A DNA stretch of 64,000 nt from Eledone cirrhosa (GCA_964016885.1 OZ024744.1:128588001-128652000); one strand, 5' to 3'; shown: positions 14,701-56,040, counted from the stretch's first letter. Program-made: numbers and translations. Notes: generated by a model from the sequence alone, not told the origin.

Positions 14701-15109
14701 TTTGGGGTTAACTTAAGTTGGGGTTAACTTAAGTTGGGGTTAAGTTAAGTTGGGTTTATGTTAAGTTGGGGATAAGTTAAGTTGGGGTTAAGTTAAGTTG
14801 GGGTTCAATTAAGTTGCGGTTAATTTAAGTTGGGGTTAAGTTAAGTTGGGGTTAAGTTAAGTTGGGGTTAAGTTAAGTTGGGGGTAAGTTAAGTTGAGGG
14901 TAAGTCAAGTTGGGGTTAAGTCAAGTTGGGGTTAAGTTAAGTTGGGGTTAAGTTAAGTTGGGGTTGAGTTAAGTTGGGGTTGAGTTAAGTTGGGGTTAAG
15001 TTAAGTTGGGTGTAAGTTAAGTTGGGGTTAAGTTAAGTTGGGGTTAAGTTAAGTTGGGGTTAAGTTAAGTTGGGGGTAAGTTAAGTTGGGGGCAAGTTAA
15101 GTTGGGGTT

Positions 15110-29640: not shown

Positions 29641-30232
29641 GGTTTTTCGAAAACCTTATATAATCATTTTTTTTTAGGTTTTTCGAAACACCTTATATAA
29701 TCAATTTTTTTATGTTTTTCCAAAAACCTTATATAATAATTTTTTTTATACTTTTAGAAATATTTATATCTGATTTCAAATATTTATTTTTCTAGGTTTT
29801 TCGAAAACCTTATATAATCAATTTTTTTTAGGTTTTTCGAAAAATGTTATATAATCAATTTTTTTTAGGTTTTTCGAAAAACCTTATATAATCAATTTTT
29901 TTTTAGGTTTTTCGAAACACCTTATATAATCAATTTTTTTTAGGTTTTTCGAAAAACCTTATATAATCAATTTTTTTTAGGTTTTTCGAAAAACCTTATA
30001 TAATCAATTTTTTTAGGTTTTTCGTAAAACCTTATATAATCAATTTTTTTAGGTTTTTCGAAAAACCTTATATAATCAATTTTTTTTAGGTTTTTCGAAA
30101 TACCTTATATAATTAATTTTTTTTAGGTTTTTCGAAAAATCTTATATAATTAATTTATATCTGATTTCAAATATTGATTTTTTTAGGTTTTTCGAAAACC
30201 TTATATAATCAATTTTTTTTAGGTTTTTCGAA
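29641..30232 (+). repeat. 36-38-bp minisatellite AGGTTTTTCGAAAAACCTTATATAATCAATTTTTTTT (left flank of island 1)
   Basis: Unit starts at 29942, 29979, 30015, 30051, 30088; consensus contains the perfect 18-bp palindrome AGGTTTTTCGAAAAACCT. Interrupted twice by the ATTTATATCTGATTTCAAATATT motif. Confidence 0.95.
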
Positions 30233-32470
30233 AAAGAATGAATTCATATTCGAAATATATACTTCTGCATTAATCTTTTTACGTTTTTCTGATTTTTTGC
30301 ATGTTTTGAAATTTAAAAAAAACGTAAAAAATTAATGCTTTTACAAATATTTTGAAATATTTACTTTCTGGTTTCAAATTTTGCAAATTAAATTTTTTTC
30401 TAAAAAAATCAGTTTTCGAAATCAGAAGTTAATATTTCGAAAAACGCAATTTAAAAAACTCATATTAATTTTTTTTCGAATGAAGTTTTTTTATGCTTTT
30501 AGAAATATTTATATCTGATTTAAAATATTGATTTTTTTAGGTTTACCTTATATAATCAAATTTTTTTAGGTTTTTCGAAATATCTTATATAATCAATTTT
30601 TTTTAGGTTTTTCGAAAAAGAATGAATTTGAGTTCATAGTCGAAATATATACTTCTGCATTAATCTTTGATTTTTTGCATGTTTTGAAATCTAAAAAAAA
30701 CGTAAAAAATTAATGCTTTTACAAATATTTTGAAATATTTACTTTCTGGTTTCTAAGTTTGCAAATTAAATTTTTTTCGAAAAACCTAAAAAAATCAGTT
30801 TTTGAAATCAGAAGTTAATATTTCGAAAAACGCAATTTGAAAAACTCATATTAATTTTTTTTCGAATGAAGTTTTTTATACTTTTAGAAATATTTATATC
30901 TGATTTCAAATATTGATTTTTTTAGGTTTTTCGAAAAAGAATGAATTTGAGTTCATAGTCGAAATATATATTTCTGCATTAAGCTTTTTACGTTTTTCTG
31001 ATTTTTTGCATGTTTTGAAATTTAAAAAAAACGTAAAAAAACAATATTTCGAAAAACGCAATTTGAAAAACTCATATTCATTTTTTTTCGAATGAATTCT
31101 TTCATACTTTTAGAAATATTTATATCTGATTTTAAATATTGATTTTTTTAGGTTTACCTTATATAATCAAATGTTTTTAGGTTTTTCGAAAAAGAATGAA
31201 TTTGAGTTCATAGTCGAAATATATACTTCTGCATTAATCTTTTTACGTTTTTCTGATTTTTTGCATGTTTTGAAATTTAAAAAATAACGTAAAAAATTAA
31301 TGCTTTTACAAATATTTTGAAATATTTACTTTCTGGTTTCGAATTTTGCAAATTAAATTTTTTTCGAAAAAAACCTAAAAAAATCAGTTTTCGAAATCAG
31401 AAGTTAATATTTCGAAAAACGCAATTTGAAAAACTCATATTAATTTTTTTTCGAATGAAGTTTTTTTATGCTTTTAGAAATATTTATATCTGATTTCAAA
31501 TATTGATTTTTTTTAGGTTTTTCGAAAAAGAATGAATTTGAGTTCATAGTCGAAATATATATTTCTGCATTGATCTTTGATTTTTTGCATGTTTTGAAAT
31601 TTAAAAAAAAAGTAAAAAATTAATGCTTTTACAAATATTTTGAAATATTTACTTTCTGGTTTCAAAGTTTGCAAATTAAATTTTTTTCGAAAAACCTAAA
31701 AAAATCAGTTTTCGAAATCAGAAGTTAATATTTCGAAAAACGCAATTTGAAAAACTCATATTAATTTTTTTTCGAATGAATTCTTTCATACTTTTAGAAA
31801 TATTTATATCTGATTTCAAATATTGATTTTTTTTAGGTTTTTCGAAAAATCTTATATAATCAATTTTTTTTAGGTTTTTCGAAAAAGAATGAATTTGAGT
31901 TCATAGTCGAAATATATACTTCTGCATTAATCTTTGATTTTTTGCATGTTTTGAAATTTAAAAAAAACGTAAAAAATTAATATTTCGAAAAACGCAATTT
32001 GAAAAACTCATATTAATTTTTTTTCGAATGAATTCTTTTATACTTTTAGAAATATTTATATCTGATTTTAAATATTGATTTTTTTAGGTTTACCTTATAT
32101 AATCAAATTTTTTTAGGTTGTTCGAAAAATCTTATATAATCAAATTTTTTTAGGTTTTTCGAAAAAGAATTTGAGTTCATAGTCGAAATATATACTTCTG
32201 CATTAATCTTTTTACGTTTTTCTGATTTTTTGCATGTTTTGAAATTTAAAAAAAACGTAAAAAATTAATGCTTTTACAAATATTTTGAAATATTTACTTT
32301 CTGGTTTCAAATTTTGTAAATTAAATTTTTTTCGAAAAACCTAAAAAAATCAGTTTTCGAAATCAGAAGTTAATATTTCGAAAAACGCAATTTAAAAAAC
32401 TCATATTAATTTTTTTTCGAATGAATTCTTTTAGAAATATTTATATCTGATTTCAAATATTGATTTTTTT
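30233..32470 (+). repeat. Seven tandem modules (255-385 bp) with nested internal inverted repeats (core of island 1)
   Basis: Module head (consensus GAATGAATTTGAGTTCATAGTCGAAATATATAC, truncated in modules 1 and 7) at 30236, 30620, 30939, 31194, 31530, 31887, 32167. Modules 3 and 6 lack the middle block. Confidence 0.92.
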
Positions 32471-32866
32471 AGGTTTACCTTATATAATCAAATTTTTTTA
32501 GGTTTTTCAAAAACCTTATATAATCAATTTTTTTTAGGTTTTTCGAAAAACCTTACATAATCAATTTTTTTTAGGTTTTTTCGAAAAACCTTATATAATC
32601 AATTTTTTACGTTTTTAGAAAAACCTTATATAATCAATTTTTTTTATACTTTTAGAAATATTTATATCTTATTTCAAATATTGATTTTTTTTAGATTTTT
32701 CGAAATAACTTATATAATCAATTTTTCTAGGTGTTTCGAAAAACCTTATATAATCAATTTTTTTTAGGTTTTTCGAAAGACCTTATATAATCAATTTTTT
32801 TTAGGTTTTTCGAAAAACCTTATATAATCAATTTTTTTAAGTTTTTCGACAACCTTATATAATCAA
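32471..32866 (+). repeat. 36-38-bp minisatellite (right flank of island 1), same orientation as left flank, more degenerate
   Basis: Repeats of AGGTTTTTCGAAAAACCTTATATAATCAATTTT with variants (TTCAAAAA, TTACATAA, GGTGTTTCG, CGAAAGACC, CGACAACC). Confidence 0.93.
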
Positions 32867-33691
32867 GTTGAGTTTAAGTTAAGTTGGGATTAAGTTAAGT
32901 TGGGGTTAAGTTAAGATGGGGTTAAGTTATGTTGAGGTTAAGTTAAGTTGGGGTTAAATTAAGTTGGGGTTAAGTTAAGTTGGGGTTAAGTTAAGTTGGG
33001 GTTAGGTTAAGTTGGGTTTAAGTTAAGTTGGGGATAAGTTAAGTTGGGGTTAAGTTAAGTTGGGTTTAAGTTAAGTTGGGGTTAAGTTAAGTTGGGGTTA
33101 AGTTAAGTTGGGGTTAAATTAAGTTGGGGTTAAGTTAAGTTGGGGTTGAGTGAAGTTGGGGTTAAGTTAAGTTGGGGTTAAATTAAATTGGGGTTAAGTT
33201 AAGTTGGGGTTGAGTGAAGTTGGGGTTAAGTTAAGTTGGGGTTAAATTAAGTTGGGGTTAAGTTTAGTTGGGGTTGAGTTAAGTTGGGGTTAATTTAAGT
33301 TGGGGCTAAGTTAATTTGTGGTTAAGTTAAGTTGGGGTTAAGTTAAGTTGGGGTTAAGTTAAGTTGGGGTTGAGTTAAGTTGGGGTTAAGTTAAGTTGGG
33401 TTTAAGTTAAGTTGGGGTTAAATTAAGTTGGGGTTAAATTAAGTTGGGGTTAAGTTAAGTTGGGGGTAAGTTAAGTTGGGGGCAAGTTAAGTTGGGGTTA
33501 AGTTAAGTTGGGGTTAAGTTAAGTTGGGGTTAATTTAAGTTGGGGTTATGTTAAGTCGGGGTTAAGTTAAGTTGGGGTTAAGTTAAGTTGGGGGTAAGTT
33601 ACGTTAGGGCTAAGTTAAGTTGGGGTTAAGTTAAGTTGGTGTTAAGTTAAGTTGGGGGTAAGTTACGTTAGGGCTAAGTTACGTTGGGGTT
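32867..33691 (+). repeat. 16-bp satellite between island 1 and the inversion
   Basis: TTAAGTTAAGTTGGGG monomers with private variants (TTGAGTGAAG, TTACGTTAGGGC). Confidence 0.97.
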
Positions 33692-33920
33692 AACTTAACC
33701 CCAACTTAACTTAACCCCAACTTAACTTAGACCCAACTTAACTGAGCCCCAACTTAACTTAACCCCAACGTAACTTAGCCCTAACGTAACTTACCCCCAA
33801 CTTAACTTAACACCAACTTAACTTAACCCCAACTTAACTTACCCCCAACTTAACTTACCCCCAACTTAACTTACCCCCAACTTAACTTAACCCCAACTTA
33901 ACTTAACTTAACCCCAACTT
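33692..33920 (-). repeat. Inverted block of the 16-bp satellite (CCCCAACTTAACTTAA)n, 229 bp, copy 1
   Basis: C-rich monomers on the + strand. Junctions centred on the palindromes GTTAAC (33689-33694) and AACTTAAGTT (33916-33925). Confidence 0.98.
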
Positions 33921-36900
33921 AAGTTAAGTTTGGGTTAAGGTTGGGGTTAAATTAAGTTGGGGTTAAGTTAAGTTGGGGTTAAGTTAAGTTGGGGTTAAGT
34001 TAAGTTGGGGGTAAGTTAAGTTGGGGTTAAGTTAAGTTCGGGTTAAGTTAAGTTGGTGTTAAGTTAAGTTGGGGCTGAGTTAAGTTGGGGCTAAGTTAAG
34101 TTGGGTCTAAGTTAAGTTGGGGTTAAGTTAAGTTGGGGTTAAGTTAAGTTGGTTTTAAATTAAGTTGGGGTTAAATTAAGTTGGTGTTAAGTTAAGTTGG
34201 GGTTAAGTTAAGTTGGGGTTAATTAAATTGGGGTTAAGTTAAGTTGGGGTTAAGTTAATTGGGGTTAAATTAAGTTAGGGTTGAGTTAAGTTGGGGTTAA
34301 GTTAAGTTGGGGTTATATTAAGTTGGGGTTAAGTTAAGTTGGGGTTAAGTAAAGTTGGGGTTCAGTTAAGTTGGGGTTAAGTTAAGTTAGGCTTAACTTA
34401 AGTTGGGGTTAAGTTAAGTTGGGGGTGAGTTAAGTTGGGGGTAAGTTAAGTTGGGGTTAAGTTAAGTTGGGGTTAAGTTGGGGTTAAGTTAATTTAGGGT
34501 TAAGTTAAGTTGGGGTTGAGTTAAGTTGGGGTTAAGTTAAGTGGTGGTTATGTTAAGTTGGGGTTAAGTTAAGTTGGGGTTAATTTAAATTGGGGTTAAT
34601 TTAACTTTGTGGTTAAGTTAATTTGGGGTTAATTTAAGTTGGGGTTAAGTTAAGTTGGGGTTAATTTAATTTGTGGTTAAGTTAAGTTGGGGTTAAGTTA
34701 AGTTGGCGTTGAGTTAAGCTGGGGTTAAGTTAAGTTGGGGTTAAAATAAGTTGGGGTTAATTTAAGTTGGGGCTGAGTTAAGTTGGGGTTAAGTTGGGGT
34801 TGAGTTAAGTTGGGGTTAAGTTAAGTTGGGATTAAGTTAAGTTGGGGTTAAGTTAAGTTCGGGTTGAGTTAAGTTGGGGTTAAATTAAGTTGGGGTTAAT
34901 TTAAGTTGGGGTTAAGTTAAGTTGGGGTTAAGATAAGTTGGGGTTAAGTTAAGTTGGGGTTAAGTTAAGTTGGGGTTGAGTTAATTTGGGGTTAAGTTAA
35001 GTTGGGGTTAACTTAAGTTGGGGTTAAGTTAAGTTGGGGTTAAGTTAAGTTGGGGGTAAGTTAAGTTGGGGGCAAGTTGAGTTGGGGTTAAGTTAAGTTG
35101 GGGTTAAGTTAAGGTGGGGGTAAGTTAAGTTGGGGGTAAGTTAAGTTGGGGTTAAGTTAAGTTGGGGTTAAGTTAAGTTGGGTTTGAGTTAAGTTGGGGC
35201 TAAGTTAAGTTGGGGCTAAGTTAAGTTGGGGCTAAGTTAAGTTGGGGCTGAGTTAAGTTGGGGTTAAGTTAAGTTGGGGTTGAGTTAAGTTGGGGTTAAC
35301 TTAAGTTGGGGTTAAGTTGGGGTTAAGTTAAGTTGGGGTTAAGTTAAGTTGGGGGTTAGTTAAGTTGGGGGCAAGTTAAGTTGGGGTTAATTTAAGTTGG
35401 GGTTAAGTTAAGTTGGGGTTATGTTAAGTTGGGGTTAAGTTAAGTTGGGGTTAAGTTAAGTTGGGGGTAAGTTATGTTGGGGTTAAGTTAAGTTGGGGGT
35501 AAGTTAAGTTGAGGGTAAGTTAAGTTGGGGTTAAGTTACGTTGGGGTTAAATTAAGTTGGGGTAAGTTAAGCCGGGGGTAAGTTAAGTTGGGGTTAAGTT
35601 AAGTTGGGGTTAAATTAAGTTGAGGTTAAGTTAAGTTGGGGTTAAGTTAAGTTGGGGGTAAGATAAGTTGGGGCTAAGTTAAGTTGGGGCTAAGTCAAGT
35701 TGGGGTTAAGTCAAGTTGAGGTTAACTTAAGTTGGGGTTAAGTTAAGTTGGGGTTAAGTTAAGTTGGGGTTAAGGTAAGTTGGGGTTATGTTAAGTTGGG
35801 GCTAAGTTAAGTTGGGGCTAAGTTGGGGCTAAGTTAAGTTGGGGCTGAGTTAAGTTGGGGTTAAGTTAAGTTGGGGTTGAGTTAAGTTGGGGTTAAGTTA
35901 AGTTGGGATTCAATTAAGTTGGGGTTAAGTTACGTTCGGCTTGAGTTAAGTTGGGGTTAAGTTAAGTTGGGGTTAATTTAAGTTGGGGTTAAGTTAAGTT
36001 GGGGTTAAGATAAGTTGGGGTTAAGTTAAGTTGGGGTTAAGTTAAGTTGGAGTTGAGTTAATTTGGGGTTAAGTTAAGTTGGGGTTAACTTAAGTTGGGG
36101 TTAAGTTGGGGTTAAGTTAAGTTGGGGGTAGGTTAAGTTGGGGGCAAGTTAAGTTGGGTTTAAGTTAAGTTGGGGTTAAGTTAAGTTGGGGGTAAGTTAC
36201 GTTGGGGTTAAGTTAAGTTGGTGTTAAGTTAAGTTGGGTTTAAGTTAAGTTGGGGCTAAGTTAAGTTGGGGCTAAGTTAAGTTGGGGCTGAGTTAAGTTG
36301 GGGGTAAGTTAAGTTGGGTGTGAGTTAAGTTGGGGTTAAGTTAAGTTGGGGTTCAGTTCAGTTGGGGTTAAGTTAAGCTGGGGTTAAGTTAAGCTGGGGG
36401 TATGTTAAGTTGGGTGTCAGTTAAGTTGGGGTTAAGTTAAGTTGGGGTTAAGTTAAGTTGGGGTTAAGTTAAGTTGGGGTTAAATTAAGTTGGGGTTAAG
36501 TTAAGTTGGGGTTAAGTTAAGTTGGGGTTAAGTTAAGTTGGGGTTAAGTTAAGTTGGAGTTAAGTTAAGTTGGGGTTAAGCTAAGTTGGGGTTCAGTTAA
36601 GTTGGGGTTAAGTTAATTTGGGGTTAAGTTAAGTTCGGGTTGAGTTAAGTTGGGGTTAAGTTAAGTTGGGGTTAAGTTAAGTTGGGGTTAAGTTAAGTTG
36701 GGGTTAAGATAAGTTGGGGTTAAGTTAAGTTGGGGTTAATTTAAGTTGGGGTTGAGTTAATTTGGGGTTAAGTTAAGTTCGGGTTGAGTTAAGTTGGGGT
36801 TAAGTTAAGTTGGGCTTAACTTAAGTTGGGGTTAAGTTAAGTTGGGGTTAAGTTAAGTTGGGGTTAAGTTAAGTTGGGGGTAAGTTAAGTTGGGGGCAAG

Positions 36901-39900
36901 TTGAGTTGGAGTTAAGTTAAGTTGGGGTTAAGTTAAGGTGGGGGTAAGTTAAGTTGGGGGTAAGTTAAGTTGGGGTTAAGTTAAGTTGGGGTTAAGTTAA
37001 GTTAAGTTTAAGTTAAGTTGGGGCTAAGTTAAGTTGGGGCTGAGTTAAGTTGGGGTTAAGTTAAGTTGGGGTTGAGTTAAGTTGGGGTTAACTTAAGTTG
37101 GGGTTTAGTTGGGGTTAAGTTAAGTTGGGGTTAAATTAAGTTGGGGGTTAGTTAAGTTGGGGCAAGTTAAGTTGGGGTTAATTTAAGTTGGGGTTAAGTT
37201 AAGTTGGGGTTATGTTAAGTTGGGGTTAAGTTAAGTTGGGGTTAAGTTAAGTTGGGGGTAAGTTAAGTTGGAGTTAAGTTAAGTTGGGGGTAAGTTAAGT
37301 TGAGGGTAAGTTAAGTTGGGGTTAAGTTAAGTTGGGGTTAAATTAAGTTGGGGGTAAGTTAAGTTGGGGGTAAGTTAAGTTGGGGTTAAGTTAAGTTGGG
37401 GTTAAATTAAGTTGAGGTTAAGTTAAGTTGGGGTTAAGTTAAGTTGGGGTAAGATAAGTTGGGGGTAAAATAAGTTGGGGCTAAGTTAAGTTGGGGCTAA
37501 GTCAAGTTGGGGTTAAGTCAAGTTGAGGTTAACTTAAGTTGGGGTTAAGTTAAGTTGGGGTTAAGTTAAGTTGGGGTTAAGGTAAGTTGGGGTTATGTTA
37601 AGTTGGGGCTAAGTTAAGTTGGGGCTAAGTTAAGTTGGGGCTGAGTTAAGTTGGGGTTAAGTTAAGTTGGGGTTGAGTTAAGTTGGGGTTAAGTTAAGTT
37701 GGGATTAAGTTAAGTTGGAGTTAAGTTAAGTTGGGGTTAAGTTAAGTTCGGCTTGAGTTAAGTTGGGGTTAAGTTAAGTTGGGGTTAAATTAAGTTGGGG
37801 TTAAGTTAAGTTGGGGTTAAATTAAGTTGGGGTTCAGTTAAGTTGGGGTTAAATTAAGTTGGGGTTAAGTTAAGTTGGGGTTAAGTTAATTTGGAGTTAA
37901 GTTAAGTTGGGGTTAAGCTAAGTTGGGGTTCAGTTAAGTTGGGGTTAAGTTAATTTGGGGCTGAGTTAAGTTGGGGTTAAGTTAAGTTCGGGTTGAGTTA
38001 AGTTGGGGTTAAGTTAAGTTCGGGTTAAGTTAAGTTGGGGTTAAGATAAGTTGGGGTTAATTTAAGTTGGGGTTAATTTAAGTTGGGGTTGAGTTAATTT
38101 GGGTTTAAGTTAAGTTGGGCTTAACTTAAGTTGGGGTTAAGTTGGGGTTAAGTTAAGTTGGGGTTAAGTTAAGTTGGGGGTAAGTTAAGTTGGGGGCAAG
38201 TTAAGTTGGGGTTAATTTAAGTTGGGGTTAAGTTAAGTTGGGGGTAAGTTACGTTGGGGTTAAGTTAAGTTGGGGTTCAGTTAAGTTGGGTTTAAGTTAA
38301 GTTGGGGCTAAGTTAAGTTGGGGCTAAGTTAAGTTGGGGCTGAGTTAAGTTGGGGGTAAGTTAAGTTGGGTGTGAGTTAAGTTGGGGTTAAGTTAAGTTG
38401 GGGTTCAGTTCAGTTGGGGTTAAGTTAAGCTGGGGTTAAGTTAAGCTGGGGGTATGTTAAGTTGGGTGTAAGTTAAGTTGGGGTTAAGTTAAGTTGGGGT
38501 TAAGTTAAGTTGGGGTTAAGTGGGGGTTAAATTAAGTTGGGGTTAAGTTAAGTTGGGGTTAAGTTAAGTTGGGGTTAAGTTAAGTTGGGGTTAAGTTAAG
38601 GTGGAGTTAAGTTAAGTTGGGGTTAAGCTAAGTTGGGGTTCAGTTAAGTTGGGGTTAAGTTAATTTGGGGTTAAGTTAAGTTCGGGTTGAGTTAAGTTGG
38701 GGTTAAGTTAAGTTGGGGTTAAGTTAAGTTGGGGTTAAGTTAAGTTGGGGTTAAGATAAGTTGGGGTTAAGTTAAGTTGGGGTTAATTTAAGTTGGGGTT
38801 GAGTTAATTTGGGGTTAAGTTAAGTTCGGGTTGAGTTAAGTTGGGGTTAAGTTAAGTTGGGCTTAACTTAAGTTGGGGTTAAGTTAAGTTGGGGTTAAGT
38901 TAAGTTGGGGTTAAGTTAAGTTGGGGGTAAGTTAAGTTGGTGTTAAGTTAAGTTGGGGTTAAGTTAAGTTGGGGTTAAGTTAAGTTGGGGTTAAGTTAAG
39001 TTGGTTTTAAATTAAGTTGGGGTTAAATTAAGTTGGTGTTAAGTTAAGTTGGGGTTAAGTTAAGTTGGGGTTAATTAAGTTGGGGTTAAGTTAAGTTGGG
39101 GTTAAGTTAATTGGGGTTAAATTAAGTTAGGGTTGAGTTAAGTTGGGGTTAAGTTAAGTTGGGGTTATATTAAGTTGGGGTTAAGTTAAGTTGGGGTTAA
39201 GTAAAGTTGGGGTTCAGTTAAGTTGGGGTTAAGTTAAGTTAGGCTTAACTTAAGTTGGGGTTAAGTTAAGTTGGGGGTGAGTTAAGTTGGGGGTAAGTTA
39301 AGTTGGGGTTAAGTTAAGTTGGGGTTAAGTTGGGGTTAAGTTAATTTAGGGTTAAGTTAAGTTGGGGTTGAGTTAAGTTGGGGTTAAGTTAAGTGGTGGT
39401 TATGTTAAGTTGGGGTTAAGTTAAGTTGGGGTTAATTTAAATTGGGGTTAATTTAACTTTGTGGTTAAGTTAATTTGGGGTTAATTTAAGTTGGGGTTAA
39501 GTTAAGTTGGGGTTAATTTAATTTGTGGTTAAGTTAAGTTGGGGTTAAGTTAAGTTGGCGTTGAGTTAAGCTGGGGTTAAGTTAAGTTGGGGTTAAAATA
39601 AGTTGGGGTTAAGTTAAGTTGGGGTTGAGTTAAGTTGGGGTTGAGTTAATTTGGGGTTAAGTTGGGGTTAACTTAAGTTGGGTTTAATTTAAGTTGGGGT
39701 TAAGTTAAGTTGGGGTTATAATTAAGTTGGGGTTAAGTTAAGTTGGGGGTAAGATAAGTTGGGGTTAAGTTAAGCTGGGGCTAAGTTAAGTTGGGGCTAA
39801 GTTAAGTTGGGGCTAAGTTAAGTTGGGGTTAAGTTAACTTTGGGTTAAGTTAATTTGGGTTTGAGTTAAGTTGGGGTTAATTAAGTTGGGGTTAAGTTAA

Positions 39901-42900: not shown

Positions 42901-45900
42901 TGGGGCTAAGTTAAGTTAGGGCTAAGTTAAGTTGGGGCTGAGTTAAGTTGGGGTTAAGTTAAGTTGGGGTTGAGTTAAGTTGGGGCTAAGTTAAGTTGGG
43001 GTTTAGTTAAGTTGGGGTTAAGTTAAGGTGGGGTTAAGTTAAGTTGGGGTCAACTAAAGTTGGGGTTAAGTTAAGTTGGGGTTAACTTAAGTTGGGGTTA
43101 AATTAAGTTGGGGTTAAGTTAAGTTGGGGTTAAGTTAAGTTGGGGTTAAGTTAAGTTGCGGGTAATTTAAGTTGGGGTTAAGTTAAGTTGGGGTTAAGTT
43201 AAGTTGGGGGTAAGTTAAGTTGGGGGTAAGTTAAGTTGGGGTTAAGTTAAGTTAGGGTTAAGTTAAGTTGGGGTTGAGTTAAGTTGGGGTTAAGTTAAGT
43301 TGGGGTTATGTTAAGTTGGGGTTAAGTTAAGTTGGGGTTAATTTAAGTTGGCGTTAAGTTAAGTTGCGGTTAAGTTAAGTTGGGGTTAAATTAAGTTGGG
43401 GTTAAGTTAAGTTGGGATTAAGTTAAGTTGGGGTTAAGTTAAGTTGGGGTTAAGTTAGATTGTTGTTAAGTTAAGTTGGGGTTAAGTTAAGTTGGGGTTA
43501 ATTTAAGTTGGGGTTAATTTAAGTTGGGTCTAATTAAGTTGGGGTTAAGTTAAGTTGGGGTTAAGTTAAGTTGGGGTTAAGTTAAGTTGGGGTTAAGTTA
43601 AGTTGCGTTTACGTTAAGTTGGGGGTAAGTTAAGTTGGTGGTAAGTTAAGTTGGGGGTAAGTTAAGATGGGGTTAAGTTAAGTTGGGGTTAATTTAATTT
43701 GGGGTTAAGTTAAGTTAGGGTTAAGTTAAGTTGGGGTTGAGTTAAGTCGGGGTTCAGTTAAGTTGGGGTTATGTTAAGTTGGGGTTAAGTTAAGTTGGGG
43801 TTAAGTTAAGTTGGGGTTCAATTAAGTTGCGGGTAATTTAAGTTGGGGTTAAGTTAAGTTGGGGGTACGTTAAGTTGGGGGTAAGTTAAGTTGGGGTTAA
43901 GTTAAGTTGGGGTTAAGTTAAGTCGGGGTTAATTTAAGTTGCGGTTAAGTTAAGTTGGGGTTAAGTTAAGTTGGGGTTAAGTTAAGTTGGGATTAAGTTA
44001 AGTTGGGGTTAAGTTAAGTTGGGGTTGAGTTAAGTTGGGGTTAAGTTAGATTATTGTTAATTTATTTTGGGGTTAAGTTAAGTTGGGGTTAAGTTAAGTT
44101 GGGGTTAATTTAAGTTGGGGTTAAGTTAAGTGGGGGTTAAGTTGAGTTGGGGTTAAGTTAAGTTGGGGTTAAGTTAAGTTGGGGTTAAGATAAGTTGGGG
44201 TTAAGTTAAGTTGGGGTTGAGTTAAGTTCGGGTTGAGTTAATTTGGGGTTAACTTAAGTTGGGGTTAACTTAAGTTGGGGTTAAGTTAAGTTGGGTTTAT
44301 GTTAAGTTGGGGATAAGTTAAGTTGGGGTTAAGTTAAGTTGGGGTTCAATTAAGTTGCGGTTAATTTAAGTTGGGGTTAAGTTAAGTTGGGGTTAAGTTA
44401 AGTTGGGGTTAAGTTAAGTTGGGGGTAAGTTAAGTTGAGGGTAAGTCAAGTTGGGGTTAAGTCAAGTTGGGGTTAAGTTAAGTTGGGGTTAAGTTAAGTT
44501 GGGGTTGAGTTAAGTTGGGGTTGAGTTAAGTTGGGGTTAAGTTAAGTTGGGTGTAAGTTAAGTTGGGGTTAAGTTAAGTTGGGGTTAAGTTAAGTTGGGG
44601 TTAAGTTAAGTTGGGGGTAAGTTAAGTTGGGGGCAAGTTAAGTTGGGGTTAAGTTAAGTTGGGGTTAAGTTAAGTTGGGGTTAAGTTAAGTTGGGGTTAA
44701 GTTAAGTTGGGGTTAAATTAAGTTGAGGTTAAGTTAATTTGGGGTTAAGTTAAGTTGGGGTTAAATTAAGTTGGGGGTAAGATAAGTTGGGGCTAAGTTA
44801 AGTTGGGGCTAAGTCAAGTTGGGGTTAAGTCAAGTTGAGGTTAACTTAAGTTGGGGTTAAGTTAAGTTGGGGTTAAGTTAAGTTGGGGTTAAGGTAAGGT
44901 GGGGTTAAGTTAAGTTGGGGTTAAGTTAAGTTGGGGTTAAGTTAAGTTGGGGTTAAGTTAAGTTAGGGTTAATTTCAGTTGGGGTTATGTTAAGTTGGGG
45001 TTAAGTTAAGTTGGGGTTAAGTTAAGTTGAGGTTAAGTTAAGTTGGAGTTAAGTTAAGTTGGGGTTAAGCTAAGTTGGGGTTAAGTTAATTTGCGGTTAA
45101 GTTAGGTTGTGGGTTAAGTTAAGTTGGGGTTAAGTTAAGCTGGGGTTAAGTTAGGGTAAGTTAAGTTGGGGTTAAGTTAAGTTGGGGTTAAGTTAGGTTG
45201 GGGTTAAGTTAAGTTGGGGTTAAGTTAAGTTGGGGTTGAGTTAAGTTGGGGTTGAGTTAAGTTGGGGTTAAGTTAAGTTGGGGTTAAGTTAAGTTGGGGT
45301 TAAGTTAAGTTGGGGTTAAGTTAAGTTGGGGTTAAGTTAAGTTGGGGGCAAGTTAAGTTGGGGTTAATTTAAGTTGAGGTTAAGTTAAGTTGGTGTTAAG
45401 TTAAGTTGGGGCTAAGTTAAGTTGGGGCTGAGTTAAGTTGGGGCTGAGTTAAGTTGCAGTTAAGTTAAGTTGGGGTTGAGTTAAGTTGCGGTTAAGTTAA
45501 GTTGGGGTTAAGTTAAGTTGGGGTTAAGTTAAGTTGGGGTTTATTTAAGTTGGGGTTCAGTTAATTTGGGGTTAAGTTAAGTTTGGGTTAAGTTGGGGTT
45601 AAATTAAGTTGGGGTTAAATTAAGTTGGGGTTAAGCTAATTTGGGGTTAAGTTAAGTTGGGGTTAATTTAAGTTGGGGTTAAGTTAAGTTGCGGGTAATT
45701 TAAGTCGGGGTTAAGTTAAGTTGGGGTTAAGTTAAGTTGGGGTTAAGTTAAGGTGGGGTTTAGTTAAGTTGGGGTTAAGTTAAGTTGGGGGTAAGTTAAG
45801 TTGGGGGTAAGTTAAGTTGGGGGTAAGTTAAGTTGGGGTTAAGTTAAGTCGGGGTTAAGTTAAGTTGGGGTTAAGTTAAGTTGGGGTTAATTTAAGTTGG

Positions 45901-48900
45901 GGTTAAGTTAAGTTGGGGGTAAGTTAAGTTGGGGGTAAGTTAAGTTAGGGTTAAGTTAAGTTGGGGTTGAGTTAAGTTGGGGTTAAGTTAAGTTGGGGTT
46001 ATGTTAAGTTGGGGTTAAGTTAAGTTGGGGTTAAGTTAAGTTGGGGTTAAGTTAAGTTGCGGTTAAGTTAAGTTGGGGTTAAATTAAGTTGGGGTTAAGT
46101 TAAGTTGGGATTAAGTTAAGTTGGGGTTAAGTTAAGTTGGGGTTAAGTTAAGTTGGGGTTAAGTTAGATTGTTGTTAAGTTAAGTTGGGGTTAAGTTAAG
46201 TTGGGGTTAAGTTAAGTTGGGGTTAATTTAAGTTGGGGTTAAGTTATGTCGGGGTTAAGTTGAGTTGGGGTTAAGTTAAGTTGGGGTTAAGTTAAGTTGG
46301 GGTTAAGTTAAGTTGGGGTTAAGATAAGTTGGGGTTAAGTTAAGTTGGGGTTAAATTAAGTTCGGGTTAAGTTAATTTGGGGTTGACTTAAGTTGGGGTT
46401 AACTTAAGTTGGGATTAAGTTAAGTTGGGGTTAAGTTAAGTTGGGGTTAAATTAAGTTCGGGTTAAGTTAAGTTGGGGTTAAGTTAAGTTGGGGTTAAGT
46501 TAAGTTGGGGTTAAGTTAGGTTGGGGTTAAGTTAAGTTGGGGGTAAGTTAAGTTGGGGTTAAGTTAAGTTGGGGTTAAGTTAAGTTGGGGGTAAGTTAAG
46601 TTGGGGTTAAGCTAATTTGGGGTTAAGTTAAGTTGGGGTTAATTTAAGTTGGGGTTAAGTTAAGTTGCGGGTAATTTAAGTCGGGGTTAAGTTAAGTTGG
46701 GGTTAAGTTAAGTTGGGGTTAAGTTAAGGTGGGGTTTAGTTAAGTTGGGGTTAAGTTAAGTTGGGGGTAAGTTAAGTTGGGGGTAAGTTAAGTTGGGGGT
46801 AAGTTAAGTTGGGGTTAAGTTAAGTCGGGGTTAAGTTAAGTTGGGGTTAAGTTAAGTTGGGGTTAATTTAAGTTGGGGTTAAGTTAAGTTGGGGGTAAGT
46901 TAAGTTGGGGGTAAGTTAAGTTAGGGTTAAGTTAAGTTGGGGTTGAGTTAAGTTGGGGTTAAGTTAAGTTGGGGTTATGTTAAGTTGGGGTTAAGTTAAG
47001 TTGGGGTTAAGTTAAGTTGGGGTTAAGTTAAGTTGCGGTTAAGTTAAGTTGGGGTTAAATTAAGTTGGGGTTAAGTTAAGTTGGGATTAAGTTAAGTTGG
47101 GGTTAAGTTAAGTTGGGGTTAAGTTAAGTTGGGGTTAAGTTAGATTGTTGTTAAGTTAAGTTGGGGTTAAGTTAAGTTGGGGTTAAGTTAAGTTGGGGTT
47201 AATTTAAGTTGGGGTTAAGTTATGTCGGGGTTAAGTTAAGTTGGGGTTAAGTTAAGTTGGGGTTAAGTTAAGTTGGGGTTAAGATAAGTTGGGGTTAAGT
47301 TAAGTTGGGGTTAAATTAAGTTCGGGTTAAGTTAATTTGGGGTTGACTTAAGTTGGGGTTAACTTAAGTTGGGATTAAGTTAAGTTGGGGTTAAGTTAAG
47401 TTGGGGTTAAATTAAGTTCGGGTTAAGTTAAGTTGGGGTTAAGTTAAGTTGGGGTTAAGTTAAGTTGGGGTTAAGTTAGGTTGGGGTTAAGTTAAGTTGG
47501 GGGTAAGTTAAGTTGGGGTTAAGTTAAGTTGGGGTTAAGTTAAGTTGGGGGTAAGTTAAGTTGGGGGTAAGTTAAGTTGGGGTTAATTTAAGTTGGGTCG
47601 AATTAAGTTGGTGTTAAGTTAAGTTGGGGTTAAGTTAAGTTGGGGTTAAGTTAAGTTGGGGTTAAGTTAAGATGGGGTTTAGTTAAGTTGGGGTTAAGTT
47701 ATGTTGGGGTTACGTTAAGTTGGGGGTAAGTTAAGTTGGTGGTAAGTTAAGTTGGGGGTAAGTTAAGATGGGGTTAAATTAAGTTGGGGTTAAGTTAATT
47801 TGGGGTTGACTTAATTTGGGGTTGACTTAAGTTGGGGTTAACTTAAGTTGGGGTTAAGTTAAGATGGGGTTTAGTTAAGTTGGGGTTAAGTTAAGTTGGG
47901 GTTTAGTTAAGTTGGGGTTAAGTTAAGTTGGGGTTAAGTTAAGTTGGTGGTAAGTTAAGTTGGGGGTAAGTTAAGTTGGGGGTAAGTTAAGTTGGGGTTA
48001 ATTTAAGTTGGGTCGAATTAAGTTGGTGTTAAGTTAAGTTGGGGTTAAGTTAAGTTGGGGTTAAGTTAAGTTGGGGTTAAGTTAAGTTGGGGGTAAGTTA
48101 AGTTGGGGTTAATTTAAGTTGGGTCGAATTAAGTTGGTGTTAAGTTAAGTTGGGGTTAAGTTAAGTTGGGGTTAAGTTAAGTTGGGGTTGAGTTAAGTCG
48201 GGGTTAAGTTAAGTTGGGGTTATGTTAAGTTGGGGTTAAGTTAAGTTGGGGTTAAGTTAAGTTGGGGTTCAATTAAGTTGCGGTTAATTTAAGTTGGGGT
48301 TAAGTTAAGTTGGGGTTAAGTTAAGTTGGGGTTAAGTTAAGTTGGGGTTAAATTAAGTTGGGGTTAAATTAAGTTGGGGTTAAGTTAAGTTGGGGTTATG
48401 TTAAGTTGGTGTTAAATTAAGTTGGGGTTAAGTTAAGTTGGGGTTAAGTTAAGTTGGGGTTAAGTTAGGTTGGTGTTAAGTTAAGTTGGGGGTAAGTTAA
48501 GTTGGGGGTAAGTTAAGTTGGTGTTAAGTTAAGTTGGGGTTAAGTTAAGTTGGGGTTAAGTTAAGTTGGGTTTAAGTTAAGTTGGGGCTAAGTTAAGTTA
48601 GGGCTAAGTTAAGTTGGGGTTAAGTAAAGTTAGGGCTAAGTTAAGTTGGGTTAAGTTAAGTTGGGGTTAATTTAACTTGGGGTTACATTAAGTTGAGGTT
48701 AAGTTAAGTTGGTGTTAAGTTAAGTTGGGGTTAATTTAAGTTGGGGTTAATTAAGTTGGGGTTAATTTAAGTTGGGGTTAAGTTAAGTTGGGGTTAATTT
48801 CAGTTGGGGTTGAGTTAAGTTGGGGTTAAGTTTAGTTGGGGTTAATTTAAGTTGGGGTTGAGTTAAGTTGGGGTTAAGTTAAGTTGGGGTTAAGTTATGT

Positions 48901-51761
48901 TCGGGTTAAGTTAAGTTGCGGCTAAGTTAAGTTGGGTCTAAGTTAAGTTGGGGTTAAGTTAAGTTGGGGTTAAGTTAAGTGAGGGTTAATTTAAGTTGGG
49001 GTTATTTTAAGTTGGGGTTAAGTTAAGTTGGGGTTAAGTTAGGTTGGTGTTAAGTTAAGTTGGGGGTAAGTTAAGTTGGGGGTAAGTTAAGTTGGTGTTA
49101 AGTTAAGTTGGGTTTAAGTTAAGTTGGGGCTAAGTTAAGTTAGGGCTAAGTTAAGTTGGGGCTGAGTTAAGTTGGGGTTAAGTTAAGTTGGGGTTGAGTT
49201 AAGTTGGGGCTAAGTTAAGTTGGGGTTTAGTTAAGTTGGGGTTAAGTTAAGGTGGGGTTAAGTTAAGTTGGGGTCAACTAAAGTTGGGGTTAAGTTAAGT
49301 TGGGGTTAACTTAAGTTGGGGTTAAATTAAGTTGGGGTTAAGTTAAGTTGGGGTTAAGTTAAGTTGGGGTTAAGTTAAGTTGCGGGTAATTTAAGTTGGG
49401 GTTAAGTTAAGTTGGGGTTAAGTTAAGTTGGGGGTAAGTTAAGTTGGGGGTAAGTTAAGTTGGGGTTAAGTTAAGTTAGGGTTAAGTTAAGTTGGGGTTG
49501 AGTTAAGTTGGGGTTAAGTTAAGTTGGGGTTATGTTAAGTTGGGGTTAAGTTAAGTTGGGGTTAATTTAAGTTGGGGTTAAGTTAAGTTGCGGTTAAGTT
49601 AAGTTGGGGTTAAATTAAGTTGGGGTTAAGTTAAGTTGGGATTAAGTTAAGTTGGGGTTAAGTTAAGTTGGGGTTAAGTTAGATTGTTGTTAAGTTAAGT
49701 TGGGGTTAAGTTTAGTTGGGGTTAATTTAAGTTGGGGTTAATTTAAGTTGGGTCTAATTAAGTTGGGGTTAAGTTAAGTTGGGGTTAAGTTAAGTTGGGG
49801 TTAAGTTAAGTTGGGGTTAAGTTAAGTTGCGTTTACGTTAAGTTGGGGGTAAGTTAAGTTGGTGGTAAGTTAAGTTGGGGGTAAGTTAAGATGGGGTTAA
49901 GTTAAGTTGGGGTTAATTTAATTTGGGGTTAAGTTAAGTTAGGGTTAAGTTAAGTTGGGGTTGAGTTAAGTCGGGGTTCAGTTAAGTTGGGGTTATGTTA
50001 AGTTGGGGTTAAGTTAAGTTGGGGTTAAGTTAAGTTGGGGTTCAATTAAGTTGCGGGTAATTTAAGTTGGGGTTAAGTTAATTTGGGGGTACGTTAAGTT
50101 GGGGGTAAGTTAAGTTGGGGTTAAGTTAAGTTGGGGTTAAGTTAAGTCGTGGTTAATTTAAGTTGCGGTTAAGTTAAGTTGGGGTTAAGTTAAGTTGGGG
50201 TTAAGTTAAGTTGGGATTAAGTTAAGTTGGGGTTAAGTTAAGTTGGGGTTGAGTTAAGTTGGGGTTAAGTTAGATTATTGTTAATTTATTTTGGGGTTAA
50301 GTTAAGTTGGGGTTAAGTTAAGTTGGGGTTAATTTAAGTTGGGGTTAAGTTAAGTGGGGGTTAAGTTGAGTTGGGGTTAAGTTAAGTTGGGGTTAAGTTA
50401 AGTTGGGGTTAAGATAAGTTGGGGTTAAGTTAAGTTGGGGTTGAGTTAAGTTCGGGTTGAGTTAATTTGGGGTTAACTTAAGTTGGGGTTAACTTAAGTT
50501 GGGGTTAAGTTAAGTTGGGTTTATGTTAAGTTGGGGATAAGTTAAGTTGGGGTTAAGTTAAGTTGGGGTTCAATTAAGTTGCGGTTAATTTAAGTTGGGG
50601 TTAAGTTAAGTTGGGGTTAAGTTAAGTTGGGGTTAAGTTAAGTTGGGGTTAAATTAAGTTAGGGCTAAGTTAAGTTGAGGTTATGTTAAGTTGGTGTTAA
50701 GTTAAGTTGGGGTTAAGTTAAGTTGGGGTTTAAGTTAAGTTGGGGTTAAGTTAAGTTGGGGTTAAGTTAGGTTGGTGTTAAGTTAAGTTGGGGGTAAGTT
50801 AAGTTGGGGGTAAGTTAAGTTGGTGTTAAGTTAAGTTGGGGTTAAGTTAAGTTGGGGTTAATTTAAGTTGGGGTTAAGTTAAGTTGGGTTTAAGTTAAGT
50901 TGGGTCTAAGTTAAGTTGGGGTTAAGTTAAGTTGAGGTTAAGTTAAGTTGGGATTAAGTTAAGTTGGGGTCAAGTTAAGTTGGGGTTAAGTTAAGTTGGG
51001 GTTAAGTTAGGTTGGGGTCAAGTTATGTTGGGGGTAAGTTAAGTTGGGGGTAAGTTAAGTTGGGGGTAAGTTAAGTTGGGGGTGAGTTAAGTTGGTGGTA
51101 AGTTAAGTTGGGGGTAAGTTAAGATGGGGTTAAGTTAAGTTGGGGTTAATTTAATTTGGGGTTAAGTTAAGTTAGGGTTAAGTTAAGTTGGGGTTGAGTT
51201 AAGTTGGGGTTAAGTTAAGTTGGGGTTATGTTAAGTTGGGGATAAGTTAAGTTGGGGTTAAGTTAAGTTGGGGTTCAATTAAGTTGCGGTTAATTTAAGT
51301 TGGGGTTAAGTTAAGTTCGGGTTAAGTTAAGTTGGGGTTAAGTTAAGTTGGGGTTAAATTAAGTTAGGGCTAAGTTAAGTTGAGGTTATGTTAAGTTGGT
51401 GTTAAGTTAAGTTGGGGTTAAGTTAAGTTGGGGTTAAGTTAAGTTGGGGTTAAGTTAAGTTGGGTTTAAGTTAAGTTGGGGCTAAGTTAAGTTGGGGCTA
51501 AGTTAAGTTGGGGTTAAGTTAAGTTGGAGTTAAGTTAAGTTGGGGTTAAGTTAGGTTGGTGTTAAGTTAAGTTGGGGGTAAGTTAAGTTGGGGGTAAGTT
51601 AAGTTGGTGTTAAGTTAAGTTGGGGTTAAGTTAAGTTGGGGCTAAGTTAAGTTGGGTTTAAGTTAAGTTGGGTCTAAGTTAAGTTGGGGTTAAGTTAAGT
51701 TGGGGTTAACTTAAGTTGGGGGTAAGTTAAGTTGGGTTTGAGTTAAGTTGGGGTTAAGTTA
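33921..51761 (+). repeat. Tandem satellite array, 16-bp monomer (~1115 monomers)
   Basis: Direct reading. 39482 onward matches window position 1 onward (offset 39481, then 39497). Confidence 0.99.
45630..47580 (+). repeat. Higher-order tandem duplication, period 976 bp (61 monomers)
   Basis: TTAAGCTAATTTGGGG at 45631 and 46607; GATTGTTG at 46167 and 47143. The same junction recurs at ~63740 in the next macro-unit. Confidence 0.88.
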
Positions 51762-54700
51762 GGTTTTTCGAAAACCTTATATAATCATTTTTTTTTAGGT
51801 TTTTCGAAACACCTTATATAATCAATTTTTTTATGTTTTTCCAAAAACCTTATATAATCATTTTTTTTATACTTTTAGAAATATTTATATCTGATTTCAA
51901 ATATTTATTTTTCTAGGTTTTTCGAAAACCTTATATAATCAATTTTTTTTAGGTTTTTCGAAAAATGTTATATAATCAATTTTTTTTAGGTTTTTCGAAA
52001 AACCTTATATAATCAATTTTTTTTTAGGTTTTTCGAAACACCTTATATAATCAATTTTTTTTAGGTTTTTCGAAAAACCTTATATAATCAATTTTTTTTA
52101 GGTTTTTCGAAAAACCTTATATAATCAATTTTTTTAGGTTTTTCGTAAAACCTTATATAATCAATTTTTTTAGGTTTTTCGAAAAACCTTATATAATCAA
52201 TTTTTTTTAGGTTTTTCGAAATACCTTATATAATTAATTTTTTTTAGGTTTTTCGAAAAATCTTATATAATTAATTTATATCTGATTTCAAATATTGATT
52301 TTTTTAGGTTTTTCGAAAACCTTATATAATCAATTTTTTTTAGGTTTTTCGAAAAAGAATGAATTCATATTCGAAATATATACTTCTGCATTAATCTTTT
52401 TACGTTTTTCTGATTTTTTGCATGTTTTGAAATTTAAAAAAAACGTAAAAAATTAATGCTTTTACAAATATTTTGAAATATTTACTTTCTGGTTTCAAAT
52501 TTTGCAAATTAAATTTTTTTCTAAAAAAATCAGTTTTCGAAATCAGAAGTTAATATTTCGAAAAACGCAATTTAAAAAACTCATATTAATTTTTTTTCGA
52601 ATGAAGTTTTTTTATGCTTTTAGAAATATTTATATCTGATTTAAAATATTGATTTTTTTAGGTTTACCTTATATAATCAAATTTTTTTAGGTTTTTCGAA
52701 ATATCTTATATAATCAATTTTTTTTAGGTTTTTCGAAAAAGAATGAATTTGAGTTCATAGTCGAAATATATACTTCTGCATTAATCTTTGATTTTTTGCA
52801 TGTTTTGAAATCTAAAAAAAACGTAAAAAATTAATGCTTTTACAAATATTTTGAAATATTTACTTTCTGGTTTCTAAGTTTGCAAATTAAATTTTTTTCG
52901 AAAAACCTAAAAAAATCAGTTTTTGAAATCAGAAGTTAATATTTCGAAAAACGCAATTTGAAAAACTCATATTAATTTTTTTTCGAATGAAGTTTTTTAT
53001 ACTTTTAGAAATATTTATATCTGATTTCAAATATTGATTTTTTTAGGTTTTTCGAAAAAGAATGAATTTGAGTTCATAGTCGAAATATATATTTCTGCAT
53101 TAATCTTTTTACGTTTTTCTGATTTTTTGCATGTTTTGAAATTTAAAAAAAACGTAAAAAAACAATATTTCGAAAAACGCAATTTGAAAAACTCATATTC
53201 ATTTTTTTTCGAATGAATTCTTTCATACTTTTAGAAATATTTATATCTGATTTTAAATATTGATTTTTTTAGGTTTACCTTATATAATCAAATGTTTTTA
53301 GGTTTTTCGAAAAAGAATGAATTTGAGTTCATAGTCGAAATATATACTTCTGCATTAATCTTTTTACGTTTTTCTGATTTTTTGCATGTTTTGAAATTTA
53401 AAAAAAAACGTAAAAAATTAATGCTTTTACAAATATTTTGAAATATTTACTTTCTGGTTTCGAATTTTGCAAATTAAATTTTTTTCGAAAAAAACCTAAA
53501 AAAATCAGTTTTCGAAATCAGAAGTTAATATTTCGAAAAACGCAATTTGAAAAACTCATATTAATTTTTTTTCGAATGAAGTTTTTTTATGCTTTTAGAA
53601 ATATTTATATCTGATTTCAAATATTGATTTTTTTTAGGTTTTTCGAAAAAGAATGAATTTGAGTTCATAGTCGAAATATATATTTCTGCATTGATCTTTG
53701 ATCTTTTGCATGTTTTGAAATTTAAAAAAAAAGTAAAAAATTAATGCTTTTACAAATATTTTGAAATATTTACTTTCTGGTTTCAAAGTTTGCAAATTAA
53801 ATTTTTTTCGAAAAACCTAAAAAAATCAGTTTTCGAAATCAGAAGTTAATATTTCGAAAAACGCAATTTGAAAAACTCATATTAATTTTTTTTCGAATGA
53901 ATTCTTTCATACTTTTAGAAATATTTATATCTGATTTCAAATATTGATTTTTTTTAGGTTTTTCGAAAAATCTTATATAATCAATTTTTTTTAGGTTTTT
54001 CGAAAAAGAATGAATTTGAGTTCATAGTCGAAATATATACTTCTGCATTAATCTTTGATTTTTTGCATGTTTTGAAATTTAAAAAAAACGTAAAAAATTA
54101 ATATTTCGAAAAACGCAATTTGAAAAACTCATATTAATTTTTTTTCGAATGAATTCTTTTATACTTTTAGAAATATTTATATCTGATTTTAAATATTGAT
54201 TTTTTTAGGTTTACCTTATATAATCAAATTTTTTTAGGTTGTTCGAAAAATCTTATATAATCAAATTTTTTTAGGTTTTTCGAAAAAGAATTTGAGTTCA
54301 TAGTCGAAATATATACTTCTGCATTAATCTTTTTACGTTTTTCTGATTTTTTGCATGTTTTGAAATTTAAAAAAAACGTAAAAAATTAATGCTTTTACAA
54401 ATATTTTGAAATATTTACTTTCTGGTTTCAAATTTTGTAAATTAAATTTTTTTCGAAAAACCTAAAAAAATCAGTTTTCGAAATCAGAAGTTAATATTTC
54501 GAAAAACGCAATTTAAAAAACTCATATTAATTTTTTTTGAATGAATTCTTTTAGAAATATTTATATCTGATTTCAAATATTGATTTTTTTAGGTTTACCT
54601 TATATAATCAAATTTTTTTAGGTTTTTCAAAAACCTTATATAATCAATTTTTTTTAGGTTTTTCGAAAAACCTTACATAATCAATTTTTTTTAGGTTTTT

Positions 54701-54986
54701 TCGAAAAACCTTATATAATCAATTTTTTACGTTTTTAGAAAAACCTTATATAATCAATTTTTTTTATACTTTTAGAAATATTTATATCTTATTTCAAATA
54801 TTGATTTTTTTTAGATTTTTCGAAATAACTTATATAATCAATTTTTCTAGGTGTTTCGAAAAACCTTATATAATCAATTTTTTTTAGGTTTTTCGAAAGA
54901 CCTTATATAATCAATTTTTTTTAGGTTTTTCGAAAAACCTTATATAATCAATTTTTTTAAGTTTTTCGACAACCTTATATAATCAA
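51762..54986. repeat. AT-rich composite repeat island, copy 2
   Basis: Offset 22121/22120 from copy 1 with identical junctions. By eye it differs by four substitutions and one 1-bp indel. Confidence 0.97.
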
Positions 54987-55811: not shown

Positions 55812-56040
55812 AACTTAACCCCAACTTAACTTAACCCCAACTTAACTTAGACCCAACTTAACTGAGCCCCAACTTAACTTAACCCCAACGTAACTTAGCC
55901 CTAACGTAACTTACCCCCAACTTAACTTAACACCAACTTAACTTAACCCCAACTTAACTTACCCCCAACTTAACTTACCCCCAACTTAACTTACCCCCAA
56001 CTTAACTTAACCCCAACTTAACTTAACTTAACCCCAACTT
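55812..56040 (-). repeat. Inverted block of the 16-bp satellite, 229 bp, copy 2
   Basis: Matches 33692-33920 at offset 22120, including both junctions. Confidence 0.98.

What the first reader, a model, noticed from the sequence alone, without database searches (positions are those of the whole stretch)
29641..54986. ~22.1-kb macro-unit (island + inversion + satellite) present as three length-polymorphic copies, with exactly closing arithmetic
Seen: islands and inversions recur at offset 22121/22120, and the window start matches 39482 onward with markers at offset 39497. The first unit has extra 2134+9956+6502 = 18592 bp and the second has extra 16+976-16+240 = 1216 bp, so 22121+18592-1216 = 39497, the observed offset. 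A 16-bp satellite therefore carries a nested hierarchy of periods from 5 bp to 22 kb, reminiscent of alpha-satellite higher-order repeats but with embedded foreign islands. Inference: the true amplification unit is the macro-unit, not the monomer.
Basis: seen in the sequence. Interest (0 to 1): 0.7.

Follow-up and report, generated by a model that had tools for sequence, protein, structure and literature searches.

The report
Passenger island in expanding satellite array
The repeated island-plus-satellite blocks are real but have no fixed 22-kb size: a 3-kb piece of a second, AT-rich repeat likely entered a giant 16-base satellite once and was likely copied along by ordinary kilobase-scale duplications, which also occur where no island is present.

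Summary
The window sits in an 8.4-Mb block of a 16-bp G-rich satellite on a 136-Mb contig of a cephalopod genome. The island is not foreign: it is a piece of an AT-rich satellite that forms its own array on another contig. One 5' junction occurs 59 times, all on this contig, so the island likely entered once. Spacing runs from 7 to 420 kb (median about 15 kb); 22.1 kb occurs in 2 of 55 intervals. The first 'copy' starts at a fold-back remnant and measures 34.6 kb, not 39.5 kb. Island-free flanks carry equally large near-exact duplications (16 and 31 kb), and all large junctions keep monomer register. This is block duplication with a passenger, as described for Arabidopsis centromeres and interstitial telomere arrays, human Yq12 and Tribolium; it is not an alpha-type higher-order repeat. 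The closing arithmetic is an identity, not independent evidence. Read-level support and a centromere role are untested. The scan noted this architecture before in the next window and 3.7 Mb away.

The parts
1..29637 (+). 16-bp G-rich satellite, rest of the unit that starts at a fold-back island remnant about 1.8 kb left of the window; unit length 34,629 bp between 3' junctions
4496..8787 (+). 2,134-bp tandem duplication, 0 mismatches, 24-bp junction overlap; likely the oldest of the three nested events (carried in three places)
2788..21612 (+). 9,956-bp tandem duplication, 8,869 bp exact until cut by the 6,502 event; 13-bp junction overlap
15095..28114 (+). 6,502-bp tandem duplication, 6,518 bp exact, 16-bp overlap; likely the youngest
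29638..32866 (+). Island 1: AT-rich (about 20% GC) modular satellite piece of 37-bp, 45-bp and about 250-bp modules; non-coding; holds the BstBI sites
   Evidence: (longest stop-free frame 68 codons)
32867..33693 (+). 826-bp satellite spacer between island and inversion
33694..33923 (-). About 230-bp inverted satellite patch holding an exact 83-bp mirror (33759-33841) of 33611-33693
33924..51758 (+). Satellite body of the 22,121-bp unit
34761..39612 (+). 4,852-bp segment bounded by long direct repeats (533 bp exact); absent from the three units to the left, largely present in two units further right
51759..54986 (+). Island 2, 99.8% identical to island 1
55814..56043 (-). Inversion copy 2 (+22120)
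56044..64000 (+). Satellite of the 17,150-bp unit, lacking 4,986 bp; next island starts at 68912

Best explanation
The island is a 3-kb piece of a second, AT-rich satellite that likely entered the 16-bp array once and was then likely copied as a passenger by in-register duplications and deletions of varying size, so the 22.1-kb unit is one local interval, not a fixed period. Shown: shared junctions, variable spacing, register kept, equal block duplications without islands, a stand-alone array of the island family. Inferred: capture by a template switch at a few shared bases; growth by homology-directed repair or unequal exchange between any two monomers; separation of the clusters by later island-free expansion; no function for the islands.
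For: One 21-base 5' junction occurs 59 times genome-wide, all on C28: 31 at 128.56-129.60 Mb, 26 at 132.04-132.74 Mb, 2 inverted at 124.64 Mb. One 3' junction occurs 40 times, all in the first cluster. In 664 kb read whole, 29 of 31 islands share the 5' and 31 of 31 the 3' junction. Spacing medians 15.6 and 13.5 kb, CV 0.46 and 0.51 below 60 kb; 22.1 kb in 2 of 55. The 200 kb to the left has no island yet holds 12,652 bp at offset 16,130 with 2 mismatches and 7,795 bp at offsets 31,350 and 47,480. 0 of 8 single-diagonal tandem duplications contain or break in an island. 33 of 33 junction rows over 100 bp (19 distinct events) and 53 of 54 satellite rows keep monomer register; 26 of 33 overlaps are 7-49 bp, against a random in-register median of 14 bp. 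The island family forms a pure array in 3 of 3 samples over C18:12.846-12.910 Mb at 81-86% identity. A neutral simulation with a 2.7-kb island reaches the observed CV in 8-24% and the median in 3-59% of runs across 9 settings.
Against: No reads of this organism were available, so the zero-mismatch duplications and the fold-back could be assembly errors. Next-copy distance is about twice as long in the island cluster (15.7 kb) as in island-free flanks (about 7 kb); partly expected, since a block must exceed 3 kb to carry an island. A first simulation with point markers failed (median 4.5-6 kb, CV about 0.9). The refined one rarely gives a minimum spacing of 7.4 kb (at most 2.5% of runs), though truncated islands do sit about 3 kb apart. 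Its length distribution was chosen from my own calls. The register test covers only abutting blocks in 7 units against one reference unit. Seven rows (3 events) have 181-653 bp overlaps.
Confidence: 0.78

Rival explanations
1. The islands promote their own copying: 2-3 kb of non-satellite homology anchors island-to-island exchange, as proposed for transposons in Arabidopsis interstitial telomere arrays.
For: Island interiors vary from 0.8 to 6.6 kb by whole modules; next-copy distance doubles in the cluster; about 65 copies from one entry; precedent in 10.64898/2026.05.10.723265 section 9.
Against: 0 of 8 young tandem duplications involve an island; equal blocks occur without islands; island-free stretches up to 2.4 Mb lie between junction hits.
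Confidence: 0.1
2. The islands are functional centromere seeds of a second satellite, spaced about 15 kb apart by selection.
For: Similar median spacing in two clusters. The 16-bp satellite also sits at the midpoints of C2 (50%) and C3 (49%) and on C18, where the island family has its own array. Tribolium cassettes are proposed to be structural (PMC13081366).
Against: Spacing is compatible with neutral runs; islands are truncated, folded back or absent over most of the array; no chromatin data.
Confidence: 0.07
3. A fixed 22.1-kb higher-order repeat of alpha-satellite type, with length polymorphism.
For: Neighbouring units are collinear and differ by 10 mismatches in 17,096 aligned bases; two intervals measure 22,121 and 22,144 bp.
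Against: The two 22.1-kb intervals differ inside; 53 of 55 intervals have other sizes; median unbroken flank homology between islands is at most 354 bp.
Confidence: 0.02
4. The macro-structure as a whole is an assembly artefact.
For: The three nested duplications and the 1,265-bp fold-back arms are exact; no listed contig piece spans the island.
Against: Island copies differ by substitutions and whole-module indels in graded fashion; the longest exact repeat is 8.9 kb; no N in 864 kb. Single duplications remain open (my estimate about 0.15 for the 9,956 and 6,502 events).
Confidence: 0.03

Closest known systems
Arabidopsis interstitial telomeric repeat arrays with TE-HOR block duplications (10.64898/2026.05.10.723265; abstract and section 9 read)
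   Same: One insertion in a G-rich short-unit array copied in tandem with its flanking block (10 blocks from one ENSPM insertion).
   Different: Here the insert is a second satellite, not a transposon, and equal blocks occur without it.
Arabidopsis CEN178 mutation spectrum (10.1101/2025.06.02.657473; abstract and sections 5, 7, 11 read)
   Same: Kilobase duplications and deletions that keep register (56 of 56 there); homogenised blocks and split, distant look-alike blocks arise from these alone.
   Different: 16-bp monomer, events up to about 31 kb, an embedded marker; centromere status unknown here.
Human Yq12 DYZ1/DYZ2 (10.1101/2022.12.01.518724; passages read)
   Same: Two unrelated satellites, one AT-rich, interleaved by iterative tandem duplications that span both.
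   Different: Yq12 blocks are 20-1,600 kb; here islands are 0.8-6.6 kb and fill a minority of the array.
Tribolium madens TmSat2 cassettes in TmSat1 (PMC13081366; passages read)
   Same: Minor satellite embedded in a major one, conserved transition zones, elastic interior, conserved inversion sites.
   Different: There the satellites share an ancestor, cassettes number 5,764, are dyad-symmetric and lie on all chromosomes; here about 65 direct-oriented copies on one contig.
Primate alpha-satellite higher-order repeats (recalled; contrast with small local HORs in PMC13011684, abstract only)
   Same: Multi-monomer blocks more alike than chance monomer order.
   Different: No fixed period, no long homogeneous run of one unit.

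Membership tests
Alpha-satellite-type higher-order repeat | Multi-monomer unit whose copies are near-identical in monomer order | tested here: met
   10 mismatches in 17,096 bases between neighbours; shuffle control
Alpha-satellite-type higher-order repeat | One period repeated many times in tandem (recalled) | tested here: not met
   22.1 kb in 2 of 55 intervals; CV about 0.5
Alpha-satellite-type higher-order repeat | The unit builds most of the array (recalled) | tested here: not met
   Junction hits span 1.04 and 0.70 Mb of an array of about 8.4 Mb
Alpha-satellite-type higher-order repeat | CENP-A occupancy | not testable with these tools
   No chromatin data
Transposable element | Coding capacity, terminal inverted repeats or target-site duplication | tested here: not met
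   Longest stop-free frame 68 codons; junction flanks show neither feature by inspection
Transposable element | Independent insertion sites | tested here: not met
   29 of 31 islands share one 5' junction and flank; cluster 2 shares the homologous flank
Tribolium-type satellite cassette | Conserved transition zones with a variable interior | tested here: met
Tribolium-type satellite cassette | Dyad symmetry of the cassette around a fixed inversion point | tested here: not met
   30 of 31 islands are one-directional; the inversion lies 826 bp outside and is often missing
Yq12-type interleaved satellites | Two unrelated satellites duplicated together in tandem | tested here: met
Yq12-type interleaved satellites | Position on a sex chromosome | not tested
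Telomere or telomere-associated array | Terminal position | tested here: not met
   Window 7.8 Mb and array edge about 1.2 Mb from the contig end; the last 3 kb hold neither repeat

The most novel reading that the evidence does not exclude
The AT-rich family is the true cephalopod centromere satellite, and the two clusters are centromere domains in which short seeds of it are held about 15 kb apart inside a G-rich spacer satellite. The array would then be a first mapped octopod centromere with a built-in marker for tracing its turnover.
Probability: 0.08. Interest if true: 0.65.

Novelty: new member of a known kind. Interest (0 to 1): 0.27.

Why it matters
As it stands it is a well-marked natural record of how a short-unit satellite grows: about 65 tagged copies from one entry let duplication sizes, order and register be read directly, and they fit the model measured in Arabidopsis. 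I found no paper holding this 16-bp repeat (four rotations, 0 hits) and none on cephalopod satellite or centromere DNA among the listings of three searches, so the two families are usable probes for cephalopod cytogenetics. It would matter more if the clusters prove to be centromeres.

Tried and rejected
Fixed 22.1-kb period: rejected. Foreign or mobile island: rejected; no Rfam match in the island locus L001. Telomere: rejected by position. Point-marker simulation did not fit and was replaced by one with a finite island. Public runs: no holder had half of the island's words, best 0.27; no RNA holder listed. Laying four runs showed both repeat families with many fixed differences, likely a related organism, and no piece spanning the island, so it cannot test the assembly. 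Genome-wide mapping of the 16-bp repeat is incomplete because lists stop at 100 places; the complete lists show only C28 and C18. A density-based estimate of 12.7 Mb is rough. PMC5932611 (abstract only) was not used. No supplements were read. Of the 1.04-Mb first cluster, 129.20-129.60 Mb was read only in 4 stretches of 10 kb; of the second cluster, 130 kb of 700 kb.

Full report
Observation. The window is a 16-bp G-rich satellite (mean 94.5% identity to consensus, about 97% of monomers 16 bp long) interrupted by two AT-rich islands and two small inversions. The structure is far beyond chance: 79% of 400-mers recur, against none in 10 monomer shuffles.

Predictions. The next island starts at 68912, one monomer beyond the predicted 68896. 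The leftward prediction fails. The left unit starts at a 683-bp island remnant at the centre of a fold-back with exact 1,265-bp arms and a 36-bp spacer; it lacks 4,852 bp and measures 34,629 bp. All 1,317 BstBI sites in 664 kb lie in islands, but the 30 fragments over 1 kb range from 1.8 to 120 kb.

Context. The window lies at C28:128.59-128.65 Mb of a 3.0-Gb genome; C28 is 136.5 Mb long. The array begins at about 126.97 Mb and ends between 135.33 and 135.35 Mb; between these it was sampled, not read whole. A haemocyanin exon scores best against chains 4yd9_C and 1js8_A (659 and 650 bits, against 460 and 372 for 8tnv_A and 1lnl_A), which I recall as squid, octopus and two gastropods. Seven strong domain hits per gene fit the octopod type (recalled). 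So the genome is a cephalopod, likely an octopod.

What the island is. It is built from 37-bp, 45-bp and about 250-bp modules whose number varies between copies and has no stop-free frame over 68 codons. The same family forms a pure array on C18 in 3 of 3 samples over 64 kb, 81-86% identical over a 360-bp module, and a 1.7-kb tract at the edge of a second 16-bp array on C2. It is a second satellite, not foreign DNA.

One entry, many copies. The 5' junction occurs 59 times, all on C28, in three groups. The 3' junction of this window occurs 40 times, only in the first cluster; the other groups have different 3' ends. The 5' join lies in a short word shared by an island module and a common monomer variant (46 occurrences in the window), which suggests capture by a microhomology template switch; this is inference.

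No fixed period. Spacing is 7.4-420 kb in the first cluster and 8.1-256 kb in the second, medians 15.6 and 13.5 kb; 22.1 kb occurs in 2 of 55 intervals, and those two differ inside. One duplicated block of 23.8 kb carries two islands. The inversion follows the island at 826 bp in this neighbourhood but is displaced, doubled or absent elsewhere.

Islands are not needed. The 200 kb to the left holds no island motif and no BstBI site, yet carries 12,652 bp repeated at offset 16,130 with 2 mismatches and a 7,795-bp block in three copies. None of 8 single-diagonal tandem duplications in 664 kb contains or breaks in an island.

Mechanism. All 33 junction rows over 100 bp (19 distinct events, in 7 units against one reference) keep monomer register; 26 have 7-49 bp of overlap, near the 14-bp median of random in-register pairs, and 7 rows have 181-653 bp. 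Any monomer can thus likely pair with any other. The 2,134, 9,956 and 6,502 events nest in that order and have no mismatches, so they are very young or, less likely, assembly errors. This matches Arabidopsis mutation-accumulation data, where 56 of 56 large centromeric indels kept register and simulations gave homogenised and split blocks. My neutral simulation with a finite island reaches the observed CV in 8-24% and the median in 3-59% of runs; a point-marker version did not fit. Next-copy distance is about twice as long in the island cluster, which leaves room for islands aiding their own copying. The G-runs every 16 bp could form long-loop quadruplexes and stall forks; this was not tested.

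Comparison. It works like the TE-HOR block duplications of Arabidopsis interstitial telomere arrays, human Yq12 and Tribolium cassettes. It fails membership of alpha-type higher-order repeats on period and extent, and of transposons on anatomy and insertion sites.

Earlier notes. My reading was set before the look-ups. Notes on the next window and on the second cluster reach similar conclusions; they are not independent support. They supplied the Tribolium and Yq12 papers and prompted the search that found the C18 array.

Verdict. A real, neatly marked case of block-wise satellite growth with a passenger; a new instance of a known kind. Centromere role and read support are open. Interest 0.27.

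Noticed in passing
G000:C2:209.30-209.37 and 209.78-209.82 Mb (L126-L133): The same 16-bp satellite has captured a different, 277-bp GC-richer piece, and here the composite is a regular new unit: median 520 bp in 3 of 3 samples (154 units), with a 6,493-bp higher period. It lies at the midpoint of a 416-Mb contig.
   Followed up: partly
G000:C3:184.74-184.77 Mb (L021, L134): A degenerate telomere-type hexamer tract directly abuts the 16-bp array at 49% of a 379-Mb contig; a possible chromosome-fusion scar.
   Followed up: partly
window -3385 to -820 (L028): Single fold-back with exact 1,265-bp arms and a 36-bp spacer, centred in an island tail; real hairpin event or read artefact.
   Followed up: partly
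G000:C28:126.0 Mb (L093 1195-2000): 5' piece of an 18S rRNA gene followed by internally repeated sequence and preceded by a tandem repeat of about 160 bp; looks like rearranged rDNA 1 Mb from the array.
   Followed up: no
G000:C28:132.04-132.74 Mb (L146-L158): Second island cluster with the same 5' junction, other 3' junctions, islands of 0.8-6.6 kb and many 0.14-0.35 kb inversions.
   Followed up: partly
G000:C28:124.60-124.67 Mb (L016, L138, L139, L165): Separate inverted block of the satellite with two diverged islands 6,051 bp apart that share the 5' junction.
   Followed up: partly
G000:C18:4.8, 6.75, 10.15 and 12.85 Mb (L144, L166-L171): A 44-Mb contig carries arrays of the 16-bp satellite, the GC-rich family and the island family; a diverged 22-27 bp relative of the 16-bp repeat lines array edges on C18, C2 and C28.
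   Followed up: partly
G000:C28:133.0 Mb (L015): The satellite runs on the opposite strand here, so a large inversion lies inside the array.
   Followed up: no
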